A stretch of 64,000 bases of DNA, from positions 1-64,000 of the IMG/VR virus record IMGVR_UViG_3300032323_000894; one strand, 5' to 3'. Positions 7,851-30,656 of this stretch are shown here, piece by piece. A program made the translations under genes and the position numbers. Numbering within the stretch: position 1 is the stretch's first letter; each line of letters opens with the position of its first letter. The DNA is from a virus. The notes beneath the pieces were generated by a model. That model was not told where the DNA came from, made no database searches, and saw only the letters and a list, made by a program, of their open reading frames with translations.

Positions 7851-8909
7851 GTGGCGACCATTTCCAGCCTCGTCGACAGAGTTCGCGTAGAACTCGGTGA
7901 TGTGCCAAAATCATTTGTCACCCAGTTCATGGCTGACGGCACCACTAATCGATTTAAGCTGCACTATTCTCCACTAGATGCAACTACAGTCGTAGTGTAC
8001 AAAAATAATGTAGACATCTCCGATGAGTGCTCTGTAGAGGAATCTTCAGGAATCCTCGTTACCGAAACGTTACCTGTTGACGGAGACGAGTTTACTGTCA
8101 GTGGTATGTACTACCGCTATTTTACTGGGGCTGAACTAGCTCAAGTTATTACTAGCGCCGTGGACATGCACTCTGCAAAGCATACAGATTCCCTGGGACG
8201 TAAGATTACCATCGATACTCTCCCTTACATTGATGAGTACCCAGTAGTTGTGTACGCCACAGCTTTGGCGCTGTACACCCTTGCTACTGACGCATCCTTT
8301 GACATTAACATCTTTGCCCCTGATGGCGTGACTATTCCTAGGTCTGAGCGTTACCGCCAGCTTCTAGACATGATGAACACTAGAAAGTCTCAGTATGCTG
8401 AGCTATGTGCCCATCTAGGTATTGGCCTATACAGTATTGATGTATTTACTCTTAGACGAATCTCTAAGAGGACTAATCGTTACGTACCTGTTTACAAGCC
8501 TATGGAAGTTGACGACAGGTCTTGGCCACAAAGGGTTAACCTTTCTCTTCCTGATTATGGAGATGCTCAACCAGCATGGCCAACAGAGGGTGGCCCACTA
8601 AACGCTTACCAAGGCGTTGCCTACGAAGAGCAAATTTCCTTTACAGGAGACTTTACTGGAAAGACTATTATTGCTCGTCTTCTAGCTCAAAGAGGAAGCG
8701 TGCAGGTAGTTAGAAACTTTACCCTAGAAGTAACTACTGAGGATGACGAAAACTTTGTAGCAAATATTTCATTGACCGCTGAAGAAACAATTCGACCACC
8801 TCGACGTACGCACTGGCAAATTGCTAGTAAAGACAACGAGACTAACGAGATTATTGAAATTCTTGGTGGCGACTTCTTTATCCAACGTCGTAGTGAGGTT
8901 ATCCTTTAA
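7851..8909 (+). CDS. Putative head-to-tail adaptor with C-terminal beta-sandwich (fibre anchor?)
   Basis: N-terminal [11 protein letters not shown] typical of head-completion proteins; GGAGG SD; TAATG-coupled to the collagen-like gene. Confidence 0.55.
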
Positions 8910-28454: not shown

Positions 28455-30656
28455 ATGCCATTAAACAAACCCAACATCGGGCAGTCTAACTGGGGACCAG
28501 TGCTCAACGATGCCCTAGATTACCTAGACTCCAAAGAAGTCTCTGCTGACACTGCTGACTTTGTATTCAGTGAAGACAACTCTGAAGGCTCTCGCAGCAC
28601 GATGACCATCACTGACCACGACATGACTATTCAGACTGTTCGTGATGAAGATTCAGTAGGTTCAGACTGCGACATAAACATTGAAGCAGCTGACGATGTA
28701 TTTATCCGTGCCTACGGAGATGACATTGGTATTTATGCAAGCAGTGAAGTTGAAATTAGAACTAATAATTATGATGGACAGGGACTTGGAGACGGTGGTA
28801 ATGACTCACACTCCTGGACGTTCAATAAAAATGGACACATCGAGTTCCCAGACGGAACTGTCCAAACTACCTCTGCTCAAGGAATTCGTCCTCTTCCAGA
28901 TTTCCTCACATGGAGAGAAGGAACAACTCATCTTCCAGCACTAAACACAAACTTTGGCTGGAACTCTGACGGCGTTTGGTTTCAGAATGCACAAGACGAA
29001 GGAGCAGTCAGCTCCTACCCAATCTATACAGACTTTACTGTTGCACAGAATGAGCCTGTAATTGTTGAATTTGACTTTGATGCCAACACCGAGTGCAATG
29101 ATATTGGCGTTTGCGTTTATGTAGATGGAACAACCCCACAATGGGATTGGAGTCCAAACACAACAAGAATTGCTGCACAGTTTGATTGCTTCAACCTAGA
29201 GCTTGTTGGTCGCACAACAGAGGTAACTGTTGGAGAGGGAGAGGGTATACCAGGCGAAGGAATCTACACCGTTACCTTTACATACAACCCAACAGCATCT
29301 ACTGACAAGGTAACTGTTTCCTACAAGGCACAAGGCTCCAGCGAGGTTATTGCATCACTCAGCCTCAATGAGGCTCTACCTGCTGGTCGTTATCGAGTTG
29401 GCTTTGCAGCAGACCAAAGTTCTTCAAATACAAAAACCTACATGTCTAACTTGTCAATTGATGTCAACAACGATGATGATTTTTACAGCAACGACCTACA
29501 GGATGGCAACTCTGGATTTACATCTGACACAGACCTTGTTATCCCAGTTGCTATCAAGGATGACAACGGCGATGACTTCATCACCTTCACAAGAACCTCT
29601 ACAGGCACTGCTCGTATTGCAACCCCACAGGACGACCTATCACTTCGCTCTGCAAGAGACATCACGCTCTTTGCTGGTAGCGAAGGTCCAGGAAACGTCT
29701 ACATTGGCTGGGGAGACGCAGAGCTCACTCCAGACGCAAGCAACCGAGTTGCAACCATTGCGGACGTTACAGCAGCAACAGGTCTTGGAGACATTACTTT
29801 TGATGGTGTAAAGATTACTGGCGCTGGCACTGCCTCTGGCGACGGACTTGGTGCTGGGACTATGGAATTGGTTCCAGACGCAGACCTATACGCCAATGAC
29901 CAATACCTAGTTATTGACCCAACTGACCCCAACCACATCCACATTCGTGCTGGTGGTGCAATGGATGAGTCCAACGCAAAAGTTATTCTTGGTGGAGAAA
30001 GAAACCACGTTTATGTCTCTGATGGTAGCAGACAAGTTTCAATTCGTACAAGACCAGCAAGAATTGAAAATACCTATGCAAACGTAAACGAAGCAAGCAG
30101 CACAGAGTTTATGGCACCCATGCCAATAATCGTTTCTGTTGGCTATACCGTTACCGTTGGTGAGACTGACTACGAGGTAACAGCAGTTACCCCTAATTCT
30201 CCGTATGAAGGTATGGCAACTGTTACAGCAACTGGAGCATCCTTTGTATCAGGAACTTCATATACATTTAGCTATGAGGAATCATACGACAACTACTGGC
30301 AGTTTAACTCAGATGGATACCTGTATGGACCTGCAATGGGTGGTCTATTTGTTTCAGGCCTTCTTAATGGAGAAGGTGATTTATGGCTTTCGTCAAACGA
30401 TAGCGTTGTTCTTAATGGCAATGAAGGTGGGGAGTTCCTAGGAAATCCAGAATTTCCTGGAAACCAGATTGCAAAACTAGATGATTTAGCCTACCTTCGT
30501 ACTAACGTTCCAACAACTTCTATAGGACTTCCTGGAGAAGTTGCTGGCCTTGTTGCAGACGATGCAAACTATCACTACTACTGCACAGCAGCCTACGACG
30601 GCACTACCCACATTTGGAAGCGTGTCGCCTGGGACGCTGGAACTTGGGGAGATTAG
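28455..30656 (+). CDS. Acidic fibre-like structural protein
   Basis: 733 aa, Asp/Thr-rich; fibre-type motifs KP.IGQ.NWG..LN.ALD, FPDGTVQTT and IWKRVAW. Confidence 0.6.
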   Translation: MPLNKPNIGQSNWGPVLNDALDYLDSKEVSADTADFVFSEDNSEGSRSTMTITDHDMTIQTVRDEDSVGSDCDINIEAADDVFIRAYGDDIGIYASSEVEIRTNNYDGQGLGDGGNDSHSWTFNKNGHIEFPDGTVQTTSAQGIRPLPDFLTWREGTTHLPALNTNFGWNSDGVWFQNAQDEGAVSSYPIYTDFTVAQNEPVIVEFDFDANTECNDIGVCVYVDGTTPQWDWSPNTTRIAAQFDCFNLELVGRTTEVTVGEGEGIPGEGIYTVTFTYNPTASTDKVTVSYKAQGSSEVIASLSLNEALPAGRYRVGFAADQSSSNTKTYMSNLSIDVNNDDDFYSNDLQDGNSGFTSDTDLVIPVAIKDDNGDDFITFTRTSTGTARIATPQDDLSLRSARDITLFAGSEGPGNVYIGWGDAELTPDASNRVATIADVTAATGLGDITFDGVKITGAGTASGDGLGAGTMELVPDADLYANDQYLVIDPTDPNHIHIRAGGAMDESNAKVILGGERNHVYVSDGSRQVSIRTRPARIENTYANVNEASSTEFMAPMPIIVSVGYTVTVGETDYEVTAVTPNSPYEGMATVTATGASFVSGTSYTFSYEESYDNYWQFNSDGYLYGPAMGGLFVSGLLNGEGDLWLSSNDSVVLNGNEGGEFLGNPEFPGNQIAKLDDLAYLRTNVPTTSIGLPGEVAGLVADDANYHYYCTAAYDGTTHIWKRVAWDAGTWGD

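What the first reader, a model, noticed from the sequence alone, without database searches (positions are those of the whole stretch)
7851..30656. Candidate plug-and-socket branched fibre system at the head/neck
Seen: a ~22-kb island between two head-completion-like genes, outside the baseplate module, built from recurring short terminal motifs in different combinations. The collagen protein has two copies of GDAWYNS.TG...VYYD.FWVE, and there are two small MTSI.FP..P..ND.YTVG.RSW.W.G..WESV proteins (14004, 14269). Those end in a double DGG-type motif (NIDGG...YGGI..IDGG). Three proteins start with an Mtd_N-like IQLR/IQYR domain (14514, 14774, 23426), each with a different C-terminal end: DGG again, FLLMGA, or a W.LSGD domain. 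The FLLMGA and W.LSGD genes are each followed by different tip genes (the YSVLGQ family with propellers, or 23929). Inference: these motifs are non-covalent docking pairs, so a collagen stalk anchored on the neck adaptor branches via tiny adaptors into several receptor-binding heads. The adaptors are too short (74-88 aa) to do much besides link.
Basis: partly seen in the sequence, partly recalled or inferred. Interest (0 to 1): 0.85.

Follow-up and report, generated by a model that had tools for sequence, protein, structure and literature searches.

The report
Snap-together fibre genes beside phage neck
An uncultivated phage, probably of freshwater actinobacteria, carries a 19-kb swappable block of fibre genes next to its neck gene. 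Their products seem to clip end to end through short matching end-pieces that recur in hundreds of other phages, but nobody has yet shown that the pieces bind.

Summary
An 18.9-kb island (8909-27794) lies between a T4-gp13-like portal adaptor gene and the next conserved neck-region gene. In the cultured relative Streptomyces phage LuckySocke these two genes are adjacent.

- ORFs ending in a ΦLLMG(A/G) peptide are followed by a ~110-aa jelly-roll gene (YSVLGQ family) in 61 of 63 cases. A second tail class, WWLG(A/V/Y), goes only with a second connector class (15 of 16, no crosses).
- ORFs starting with an Mtd_N cap are preceded by a DGG...(Y/F)GG...DGG tail in 51 of 70 independently sampled cases.

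The third pair, GDAWYN with FP, is not supported. The FP domain is homologous to four internal motifs of the collagen protein, so it is the same module, not a partner.

The 74-88-aa proteins are best read as head-spacer-tail converters between joint types. Neck anchoring of the collagen fibre rests on synteny only, and branching from it is unproven. One island protein (23426) probably docks at the baseplate instead.

Binding is inferred, not shown: the single complex prediction gave no verdict. This scan has already noted both connectors on other DNA. I found no paper describing them.

The parts
7851..8909 (+). Head-to-tail (portal) adaptor with a T4 gp13-like N-terminal part (residues 1-190) and a C-terminal Ig-like domain (244-350). 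It is the conserved gene in front of the island.
   Evidence: AF2 model with pLDDT 72. VIA-align against T4 gp13/gp14 neck entries 9lu7_A: Z 9.8, rmsd 3.3, 107 aligned, 22% id. T5, DT57C, LME-1 and Mycofy1 adaptors give Z 8.3-9.5, and Ig-like hits give Z 8-9. Homologous to LuckySocke gp82, which lacks the Ig domain.
8909..11737 (+). 942-aa collagen-like fibre. It has an N-terminal peptide [19 protein letters not shown], four small GD.Y...Y.W.G..W modules between Gly-X-Y runs, and a central globular part.
   Evidence: Pfam Collagen E 1.2e-38; phrog_819 tail protein E 1.5e-95. TAATG coupling to the adaptor gene. The first gene after the adaptor is collagen-like in 28 of 35 relatives.
11737..13956 (+). 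739-aa double beta-propeller protein, the probable distal head of the collagen fibre.
   Evidence: Pfam DUF5122 E 8.9e-43. In L070 its homologue (45% id) lies in one ORF with the collagen shaft.
14004..14228 (+). 74-aa mini protein: FP head, short collagen spacer, DGG...YGG...DGG tail.
   Evidence: Sequence. The head aligns to internal motifs of the collagen protein.
14269..14514 (+). 81-aa mini protein: FP head, collagen spacer, tail of the ...DGG...YGG...GG..GSF type.
   Evidence: The same tail type precedes the MAVQIQLRNDTAANW cap subtype in L103, L179, L209 and L222.
14514..14774 (+). 86-aa mini protein: Mtd_N cap plus a DGG...YGG...DGG tail, so it has both a cap and a tail.
   Evidence: Pfam Mtd_N E 1.8e-11. 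Adjacency rule.
14774..15040 (+). 88-aa converter: Mtd_N cap, collagen spacer, SSFLLMGA tail.
   Evidence: Pfam Mtd_N E 2.3e-15. Tail rule.
15042..15374 (+). 110-aa jelly-roll connector (YSVLGQ/YKVLGQ family).
   Evidence: AF2 model pLDDT 90, eight strands. Best fold matches are generic jelly rolls, Z 9.3 or less. The family has 5171 clusters at 50% identity.
15374..17479 (+). 701-aa protein: the same jelly-roll domain split by two inserted beta-propeller blocks.
   Evidence: Profile A3 hits at 15374-15493, 16322-16558 and 17291-17467. Pfam DUF6242.
17479..17835 (+). 118-aa jelly-roll connector paralog.
   Evidence: Profile A3 E 1.6e-27.
17835..20012 (+). 725-aa propeller protein that starts MAIRQS, which fits the head type found after jelly-roll connectors.
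   Evidence: Pfam DUF6242. The next ORF after a YKVLGQ connector starts M-[AGST]-[IVL] in 47 of 56 loci.
20022..21371 (+). 449-aa propeller protein with a TTG start behind AAGGAG. It starts (M)AISQI, the same head type.
21396..23401 (+). GT2-like gene (21396-22073), an 83-aa gene (22070-22321) and a GT2+TPR gene (22352-23401). The last two are also the last island genes in L003.
   Evidence: Weak Pfam hits. L003 homologues at 46% and 65% id sit directly before the gp83 homologue.
23426..23929 (+). 167-aa mini fibre: a long-type Mtd_N cap (MPAKAVIQYRRD) plus a common C-terminal fibre domain. No DGG-tailed gene lies upstream.
   Evidence: Pfam Mtd_N E 2.3e-12; phrog_8780 minor tail protein C-terminus E 2.5e-16. 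Head/tail subtypes.
23929..25056 (+). Thr/Phe-rich protein of no known family, TAATG-coupled to 23426.
   Evidence: No Pfam or PHROG hit. A homologous stretch follows a collagen fibre in L017.
25087..27794 (+). Two DUF6065-like paralogs (25087-25776 and 26143-26805), a 138-aa ORF and a GlcNAc-transferase-like gene (26805-27794).
   Evidence: phrog_7084 E 5.9e-37; Pfam GlcNAc E 3.3e-17.
27834..28451 (+). Conserved 205-aa gene that closes the island. It is homologous to LuckySocke gp83 and may be a second neck protein.
   Evidence: tblastn. The only other sign is a weak Atlas lead to T4_neck-protein (score 0.90, family on 13% of members). No Pfam or PDB sequence hit.
28455..30656 (+). Conserved 733-aa fibre/spike-like protein. 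Its N-terminus (P..GQSNWG..LN.AL.YLD) resembles those of LuckySocke gp84-86 ('tailspike').
   Evidence: Sequences compared by eye. The N-terminus is conserved in L003 and L012.
45653..46123 (+). Baseplate-module 156-aa protein that ends in a single ...VIDGGNA tail.
   Evidence: Sequence. Single DGGxA tails precede long-type caps in 4 of 5 cases and double tails never do.

Best explanation
The island is a swappable accessory adhesion module. Its proteins are made as separate short genes and are probably assembled end to end by short terminal connectors.

Joint 1: a C-terminal tail of about 24 residues, N(I/L)DGG.P.S.(Y/F)GG...(I/L)DGG, on one protein is held by the trimeric N-terminal Mtd_N cap of the next gene's product.

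Joint 2 has three parts. A hydrophobic C-terminal peptide (..SSFLLMGA) binds a ~110-aa jelly-roll connector (15042, 17479, and 15374 with built-in propellers). That connector in turn holds the N-terminus (MAI...) of the distal beta-propeller proteins (17835, 20022).

The 74-88-aa proteins contain nothing but a head, a collagen spacer and a tail. They act as converters between joint types: FP head to DGG tail, Mtd_N cap to DGG tail, Mtd_N cap to FLLMGA tail.

The collagen protein encoded right after the gp13-like adaptor is probably anchored at the neck by its N-terminal peptide. It probably carries the 739-aa propeller protein at its far end, much like a T4 whisker or a lactococcal neck passage structure.

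What is shown and what is inferred:
- Shown: the domain make-up, the island status, the fold of the adaptor and of the connector, and the conserved and covarying adjacency of tails and heads.
- Inferred: that adjacency means binding, the stoichiometry, the neck location, and where the FP-headed chain hangs.
- By subtype matching, 23426 more likely docks on the baseplate protein 45653-46123 than at the neck.
For: - Island status: one search gives the gp82/gp83 homologies and one search shows the two genes adjacent in LuckySocke. All 73 IMG/VR relatives have a variable block after the adaptor gene. L009 has 94-98% identical terminase, portal and capsid proteins but a different island.
- Adaptor fold: T4 gp13-like, Z 9.8.
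- Joint 2, adjacency: 49 of 57 non-redundant connector genes are preceded by a ΦLLMG(A/G) tail, against a background of 88 of 6164.
- Joint 2, diversity of carriers: the tail-bearing proteins range from 47 to 1094 aa and have unrelated bodies (FP, Mtd_N, SPNYGW minis, collagen).
- Joint 2, covariation: 61 of 63 LLMGA-type tails go to the YKVLGQ class and 15 of 16 WWLG tails go to the IERLAI class, with no crosses (Fisher 3.5e-16).
- Joint 2, third part: the next ORF starts M[AGST][IVL] in 47 of 56 cases after YKVLGQ and MPG in 6 of 6 after IERLAI.
- Joint 2, fused forms: shaft plus connector (P0117) and connector plus distal body (P0102, P0123) exist as single proteins.
- Joint 2, cultured examples: phiPsal1 gp020 (..ALMLMGG) followed by gp021, and HTVC010P gp23 (..ALAIALG) followed by gp24, which is annotated 'virion structural protein'.
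- Joint 1: 10 of 12 and, in a sample chosen by Mtd_N alone, 51 of 70 caps are preceded by a DGG tail, against a background of 84 of 1571. Cap and tail subtypes covary. BPP-1 Bbp9, the fibre gene before mtd, ends ..LADLGGIA. Mtd sits at the fibre ends (PMC2408619).
- Collagen plus propeller: they form one ORF in L070.
- Collagen N-terminal peptide: it tracks the adaptor clade.
Against: - No binding has been measured or confidently predicted.
- The loci are related, so the counts are not independent events.
- Gene order fibre-then-small-protein also fits a chaperone.
- The window's collagen protein has none of the known tails, and nothing links it to the FP-headed minis.
- Three connector paralogs follow a single FLLMGA tail, which the simple one-to-one model does not explain.
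- Neck anchoring rests on synteny and on a fold match of middling Z.
- A DGG tail also sits in the baseplate module, so the Mtd_N-capped proteins could hang there.
Confidence: 0.6

Rival explanations
1. The small jelly-roll proteins, and perhaps the minis, are assembly chaperones or maturation factors. They recognise the C-terminal tail of the fibre during folding and are not part of the finished virion, like lambda/Mu Tfa or T4 gp57A/gp38.
For: Gene order, with a small gene directly after a fibre gene, is the classic chaperone arrangement. Separately, a conserved family of about 90-125 aa (MAHFAE...) follows many distal proteins.
Against: - The connector domain hosts two whole propeller inserts in 15374-17479, which would be odd for a chaperone.
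- It occurs fused to shafts and to distal binding bodies.
- The gene after it has a cognate N-terminus.
- The HTVC010P homologue is annotated as a virion structural protein. I could not check the basis of that annotation.
Confidence: 0.15
2. The joints are real, but the whole assembly hangs from the baseplate or tail. The position of the genes between neck genes is only a tolerated insertion site.
For: - In small siphovirus-like contigs and in phiPsal1 the same tail/connector sets follow the tape-measure and distal-tail genes.
- The window's baseplate protein 45653-46123 ends in a DGGxA tail, the type that precedes long Mtd_N caps such as that of 23426.
- LuckySocke has 'tailspike' genes right after gp83.
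Against: - The first island gene is TAATG-coupled to the adaptor gene.
- It keeps an N-terminal peptide that covaries with the adaptor clade whatever its body.
- The Ig-like C-terminal domain of the adaptor is present in all 73 island-bearing relatives and absent from LuckySocke gp82, which has no island.
Confidence: 0.3
3. The 74-88-aa ORFs are stubs left by recombination between fibre genes. The tails are conserved for reasons at the DNA level, such as embedded Shine-Dalgarno sequences for translational coupling.
For: The island is a recombination hot spot. The Gly codons of ..DGG.. and ..MGA lie 5-20 nt before the next ATG and are purine/G-rich.
Against: - Each mini keeps an intact head and an intact tail.
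- Minis of the same build recur in at least 20 other loci, including a 55-aa type in 13 loci.
- The tail stays conserved where the gap to the next gene is 28-62 nt.
- The conserved F-L-L-M, I/L, P, S and Y positions, and the first DGG 45-70 nt upstream, cannot serve as a ribosome-binding site.
Confidence: 0.07

Closest known systems
Phage T4 long tail fibre joints (gp34-gp35-gp36-gp37) and the T2/S16-type gp38 tip adhesin (from my own knowledge)
   Same: A fibre is built from separate gene products. A small connector protein sits between the C-terminal end of one trimer and the N-terminal end of the next, and the genes lie in order of assembly.
   Different: No sequence or fold relation was found. 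Here the connector is a 110-aa jelly roll recognised through a C-terminal peptide of about 7 residues, and several orthogonal classes exist.
Bordetella phage BPP-1 Mtd on the tail fibre Bbp9 (Pfam Mtd_N, PF18454)
   Same: An Mtd_N-capped trimeric receptor-binding protein is encoded right after a fibre gene and sits at the fibre ends (PMC2408619). Bbp9 ends ..LADLGGIA, which resembles the ..IDGGxA tails.
   Different: In BPP-1 it is one joint at the tail fibre. Here caps and tails are chained through mini proteins, and the tail is mostly a bipartite DGG...YGG...DGG motif. I do not know of an atomic structure of the BPP-1 junction.
Branched receptor-binding complexes: Ackermannviridae CBA120 TSP1-4 (PMC7506556, PMC11414711) and Klebsiella podophages KP32/K11/KP34 with a branching domain plus a conserved docking peptide (PMC13352976)
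   Same: Several receptor-binding proteins are joined non-covalently through dedicated N-terminal modules or a short conserved docking peptide, which allows heads to be exchanged.
   Different: The connector families are different and the complexes sit at the baseplate or tail. No stand-alone adaptor-only proteins of 50-90 aa are described for them in the abstracts and passages I read.
T4 fibritin whiskers on the gp13/gp14 neck (own knowledge) and the lactococcal neck passage structure (PMC9692632)
   Same: An accessory fibre attached at the capsid-tail junction is thought to aid first, reversible contact with the host. Here the gene sits beside the neck genes, as wac does in T4.
   Different: Here the stalk is collagen-like with propeller heads and the cassette is 19 kb with about 20 genes. 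Attachment at the neck is inferred, not seen.
Collagen linker plus '3-beta domain' repeats in Tal extensions of lactococcal and streptococcal phages (PMC9692632)
   Same: Short beta modules alternate with collagen-like linkers in a trimeric fibre. This is probably what the GDAWYN and FP motifs are.
   Different: Identity of fold was not tested here. The comparison rests on the description in the paper and on the sequence pattern.

Membership tests
Pfam Mtd_N (PF18454) | Match to the family profile above the gathering score at the N-terminus | tested here: met
   14514: 44.2 bits. 14774: 56.6 bits. 23426: 47.0 bits. The cut-off is 26.3.
Collagen triple-helix repeat (PF01391) | Gly-X-Y repeats that match the profile | tested here: met
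   8909-11737: 131.1 bits, 8 stretches. Short Gly-X-Y runs in 14004, 14269 and 14774 were seen by eye.
T4 gp13-type head-to-tail (portal) adaptor | Fold of the adaptor core; gene placed after the major capsid gene | tested here: inconclusive
   9lu7_A gives Z 9.8, rmsd 3.3, 107 aligned, 22% id. Other phage adaptors give Z 8.3-9.5. There is no Pfam or PDB sequence hit. The position after the capsid gene fits.
Jelly-roll fibre connector (YKVLGQ family; PHROG 1276, no Pfam family) | Protein of about 110 aa, start M..Y.(V/I)LGQ, end ..F.AFG(S/T)E.., eight-strand jelly roll | tested here: met
   15042 and 17479 match the profile at E 1.2e-37 and 1.6e-27. phrog_1276 E 7.3e-5. Model pLDDT 90.
Jelly-roll fibre connector (YKVLGQ family) | Preceded by an ORF ending ΦLLMG(A/G) and followed by an ORF starting M[AGST][IVL] | tested here: met
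   14774 ends SSFLLMGA. 17835 starts MAIRQS and 20022 starts (M)AISQI. Oddity: three connector paralogs share one tail.
C1q/TNF-like trimeric head | Jelly-roll fold with close structural similarity to gC1q | tested here: inconclusive
   The connector model matches gC1q entries only at Z 6.4-6.7, below the generic jelly-roll hits at Z 9.3.
DGG-tail / Mtd_N-cap joint (unnamed; noted earlier in this scan) | A DGG...(Y/F)GG...DGG or ..DGGxA tail on the ORF directly upstream of an Mtd_N-headed ORF | tested here: met
   14269 to 14514 and 14514 to 14774 fit. 23426 has no upstream tail, and 14004 is followed by an FP head.
DGG-tail / Mtd_N-cap joint and tail/jelly-roll joint | Physical binding of tail to cap or connector | not testable with these tools
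Pull-down, ITC or cryo-EM is needed.
Lactococcal neck passage structure / T4 fibritin (neck-attached fibres) | Fibre seen at the collar; homology to NPS or Wac | not tested
   No particle images exist for this virus. No Pfam or PHROG hit to these families appeared.

The most novel reading that the evidence does not exclude
The tails set the branching number. A bipartite or tripartite DGG/YGG/DGG tail on a single chain may wrap one whole trimeric Mtd_N cap, so each trimer would carry three daughter trimers. A single ..DGGxA tail would need three chains per cap and so give a linear joint. Protein 14514 has both a cap and a tripartite tail, so it could branch repeatedly. 14774 would end the tree by converting it to the jelly-roll joint that bears propeller heads. 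Orthogonal tail and connector classes would keep different fibres of one virion from mixing.
Probability: 0.12. Interest if true: 0.85.

Novelty: new variant of a known kind. Interest (0 to 1): 0.66.

Why it matters
Building fibres from separate proteins through non-covalent joints is known from T4, CBA120 and KP32. The two connector sets seen here are not described in any paper I could find, yet they are very common. The jelly-roll connector alone has over 5000 clusters at 50% identity and no Pfam family.

If the tails really are docking peptides, they give a simple sequence code for three things:
- reading which phage proteins assemble together in metagenomes;
- predicting the fibre architecture of uncultured phages;
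- swapping receptor-binding heads in engineered laboratory phages.

The window adds several points to what the scan had already noted:
- both joints are chained by adaptor-only proteins of 74-88 aa;
- the cassette sits beside the neck adaptor gene of a widespread group of freshwater phages;
- the cassette is exchanged wholesale between near-identical phages;
- one predicted docking event crosses modules, from the island to the baseplate.

Tried and rejected
- Complex prediction of three copies of the FLLMGA tail region (alignment A4) with three copies of the connector (A3) gave 'no answer', score 0.01. It counts neither for nor against binding.
- Profile searches of PDB sequences found nothing useful for the adaptor, the connector or the 205-aa gene. 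The one hit was an adenovirus-type 'Fiber' at E 0.16.
- Pfam at E up to 10 gave nothing for 27834-28451.
- Full-text searches for FLLMGA-type strings found no relevant paper. I could not read the HTVC010P paper to check the basis of 'virion structural protein'.
- Promoter and terminator scans of the island were no better than shuffles.
- GDAWYN/FP as a docking pair is rejected. The FP head aligns to four internal motifs of the collagen protein, and FP-headed ORFs follow all kinds of genes.
- W.LSGD as a socket is rejected. The domain is a common C-terminal end of fibre proteins and is followed by unrelated genes in L042, L080 and L179.
- A Shine-Dalgarno explanation for the tails is rejected. 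The tails are conserved at gaps of 28-62 nt, and their conserved residues are not G-rich codons.
- Readthrough or frameshift fusion of the tail gene to the connector gene is rejected. Gaps run from -1 to 62 nt in varying frames.

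
Full report
**What the window is.** The window belongs to a 75.6-kb IMG/VR virus record, estimated 78% complete. Gene order on the + strand is terminase, portal, scaffold, major capsid, then the region in question, then sheath, tube, tape measure and baseplate. 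The nearest cultured relatives are the Streptomyces myoviruses LuckySocke and BRock, with 59-61% identity in the major capsid protein. A WhiB-like gene (61872-62285) and 45% G+C suggest an actinobacterial, probably freshwater, host. That is an inference.

**Island status.** LuckySocke gp82 matches residues 4-228 of 7851-8909, and gp83 matches 27834-28451. These two genes are adjacent in LuckySocke. The 18.9 kb from 8909 to 27794 is therefore an insertion between two conserved genes.

Seventy-three IMG/VR contigs carry a homologue of 7851-8909, and each has a different block behind it. L009 has 94-98% identical terminase, portal and capsid proteins but a different island, so the block is exchanged as a cassette. 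In L003 the block is about 9 kb and in L012 about 3 kb.

**The flanking genes.** A model of 7851-8909 (pLDDT 72) has two parts. The N-terminal part is most similar to the T4 gp13/gp14 neck entries (9lu7_A: Z 9.8, rmsd 3.3, 107 residues, 22% identity) and to the head-to-tail adaptors of T5, DT57C, LME-1 and Mycofy1 (Z 8.3-9.5). The C-terminal part is an Ig-like domain. The Z values are middling, but the hits are consistent and the gene position fits a portal adaptor.

LuckySocke gp82 lacks the Ig-like domain and has no island. All 73 island-bearing relatives have the domain.

For 27834-28451 I have only a weak Atlas lead to the T4 neck protein family.

**The first island genes.** The gene directly after the adaptor is collagen-like in 28 of 35 non-redundant relatives. 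Its first 20-45 residues follow the adaptor clade whatever the body is: a 500-1400-aa collagen fibre or a 100-aa protein. One clade has ..PLYP.ID..LLP.VP..; the other has M..E(I)I..P...V.. This, together with TAATG coupling, is the evidence that the collagen fibre is held at the neck by its N-terminus.

The 739-aa double-propeller gene that follows is fused to the collagen shaft in one ORF in L070. It is therefore probably the distal head of that fibre.

**Joint 2 (hydrophobic tail, jelly-roll connector, head).** The 110-aa product of 15042 folds with high confidence (pLDDT 90) as an eight-strand jelly roll. Its fold matches are generic: a KHP40 cement protein at Z 9.3, an HFTV1 turret protein at 8.6, nucleoplasmin, Ena and C1q at 6.4-6.7.

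A profile of the family finds more than 520 viral loci and 5171 clusters at 50% identity. It has no Pfam family.

- Adjacency: in 57 non-redundant cases the ORF just upstream ends in ΦLLMG(A/G) in 49, against 88 of 6164 background ORFs.
- Carrier diversity: the tail-bearing proteins run from 47 to 1094 aa. Their bodies are unrelated: FP head, Mtd_N cap, a 55-aa SPNYGW..-type mini in 13 loci, collagen shafts and others.
- Covariation: a second tail..WWLG(A/V/Y), is followed in 15 of 16 cases by a second ~108-aa family that starts MAGIERLAI. The LLMGA type is followed by the YKVLGQ family in 61 of 63, and there are no crosses (Fisher 3.5e-16).
- Third part: the next gene starts M[AGST][IVL] in 47 of 56 cases after a YKVLGQ connector and MPG in 6 of 6 after an IERLAI connector.
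- In the window: 14774 ends SSFLLMGA. 15042, 15374 and 17479 are connectors. 17835 (MAIRQS) and 20022 ((M)AISQI, TTG start behind AAGGAG) have the matching head.
- Fused forms: shaft plus connector (P0117) and connector plus distal body (P0102, P0123) exist as single proteins.
- Cultured carriers: Pontimonas phage phiPsal1 has gp020 (..ALMLMGG) followed by gp021, behind the tape measure. Pelagibacter phage HTVC010P has gp23 (..ALAIALG) followed by gp24, annotated as a virion structural protein.

**Joint 1 (DGG tail, Mtd_N cap).** In the loci already in hand, 10 of 12 Mtd_N-headed ORFs are preceded by an ORF with a ΦDGG motif in its last 28 residues, against 55 of 6164 in the background. In a new sample of 80 loci chosen by Mtd_N alone the figure is 51 of 70, against 84 of 1571. 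Several of the misses have a DSG variant.

The usual tail is N(I/L)DGG.P.S.(Y/F)GG...(I/L)DGG, with about 15 residues between the two D-G-G motifs.

Subtypes covary.
The same pairing occurs in L103, L179, L209 and L222.
- Single ..ΦDGGxA tails precede long caps (MPxxxxI..RRD) in 4 of 5 cases.
- Short caps follow double tails in 50 of 68 cases.

In Bordetella phage BPP-1 the fibre gene before mtd ends ..LADLGGIA, and Mtd is known to sit at the fibre ends (PMC2408619).

- The FP head and the GDAWYN motif are the same kind of module. The FP head aligns to four internal motifs of the collagen protein. This matches the small beta domains between collagen linkers described for lactococcal and streptococcal phage fibres (PMC9692632).
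- FP-headed genes follow all kinds of genes. FP looks like a primary N-terminal module whose partner is unknown, and nothing ties the mini-protein chain to the collagen stalk.
- The W.LSGD domain of 23426 is a common C-terminal fibre domain with no fixed downstream partner.
- 23426 has a long-type cap and no upstream tail. The only single DGGxA tail in the window is on the baseplate-module protein 45653-46123. I therefore predict that 23426 docks there, outside the island.

**Limits.** Binding has not been shown. The one complex prediction allowed gave no verdict. The loci share ancestry, so the counts are not independent. The strongest argument is instead that tail and connector stay together while the rest of the tail-bearing protein is replaced. 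How three connector paralogs share one FLLMGA tail is unexplained; it could be a hetero-oligomer or alternative tips.

**Relation to earlier notes of this scan.** Both connectors were noted before on other DNA. The jelly-roll joints appear in e1-5830903 and e1-5689746. The DGG/Mtd_N joint appears in e1-5534919, e1-5548065, e1-5948061 and many more. I reached the same rules from my own counts here. Those notes are not independent evidence of binding.

**Verdict.** This is a new variant of a known kind of system, the non-covalently jointed phage fibre. It uses two widespread, undescribed connector sets chained by adaptor-only mini proteins, in a swappable cassette beside the neck adaptor gene.

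Noticed in passing
window 30865-32767: A row of seven or more tiny Lys-rich proteins (69-100 aa), mostly TAATG-coupled, lies between the 733-aa fibre-like gene and the tail genes. Homologues of at least three of them (31161, 31370, 31612), 68-87% identical, sit among further small Lys-rich ORFs at the same place in L012 (8782-10972).
   Followed up: partly
window 21396-23401 and 25087-27794: Three glycosyltransferase-like genes (GT2-like, GT2+TPR with a weak hit to the prolyl-4-hydroxylase peptide-binding TPR, GlcNAc-transferase-like) and two DUF6065/phrog_7084 paralogs lie among the fibre genes. They may modify the collagen-like or Thr-rich fibre proteins.
   Followed up: partly
window 45653-46123 and 23426-23929: There is an 'orphan' single DGGNA tail in the baseplate module and an 'orphan' long-type Mtd_N cap in the island. 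By subtype they match each other, which suggests docking across modules.
   Followed up: partly
window 61872-62285: A WhiB-like transcription factor gene (Cys pattern seen by eye) points to an actinobacterial host. phiPsal1 also carries one.
   Followed up: no
window 37231-39603: The 790-aa presumed tape measure protein carries what looks by eye like an M23 peptidase motif (..HDGVD..., ..GPHLHF..). A similar stretch occurs upstream of the terminase in L042, L043, L049 and L050.
   Followed up: no
L163 2501-3138, L168 2501-3129, L204 2501-3177: A possible further connector class. Mtd_N minis of 82-100 aa that end ..Q(A/T)(V/I)(I/L)SS(R/Q)(V/I)F(S/G) are each followed by a 121-123-aa protein that starts MATF(T/S)K(L/I) and then by a glycine-rich protein.
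   Followed up: no
L033 2627-12385: There are two parallel fibre units in one phage. One uses the FLLMGA tail with a YKVLGQ connector and the other the SWWLGV tail with an IERL connector. Their downstream genes are otherwise homologous, as if orthogonal connectors keep two fibres apart.
   Followed up: partly
L009 10820-11236: The adaptor gene of this close relative carries an insert of about 140 aa, similar to residues 115-199 of the window's baseplate J-like protein (43038-45122). The insert lies between the core and the Ig-like domain.
   Followed up: no
L017 3428-4170: The terminase homologue is interrupted by about 740 bases between residues 318 and 315 of the query. This may be an intron, an intein or a homing-endonuclease insert.
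   Followed up: no
P0006 and about 30 further hits: Many members of the connector family are tandem double jelly rolls of 212-245 aa. This may bear on how several connector paralogs work together in this window.
   Followed up: no
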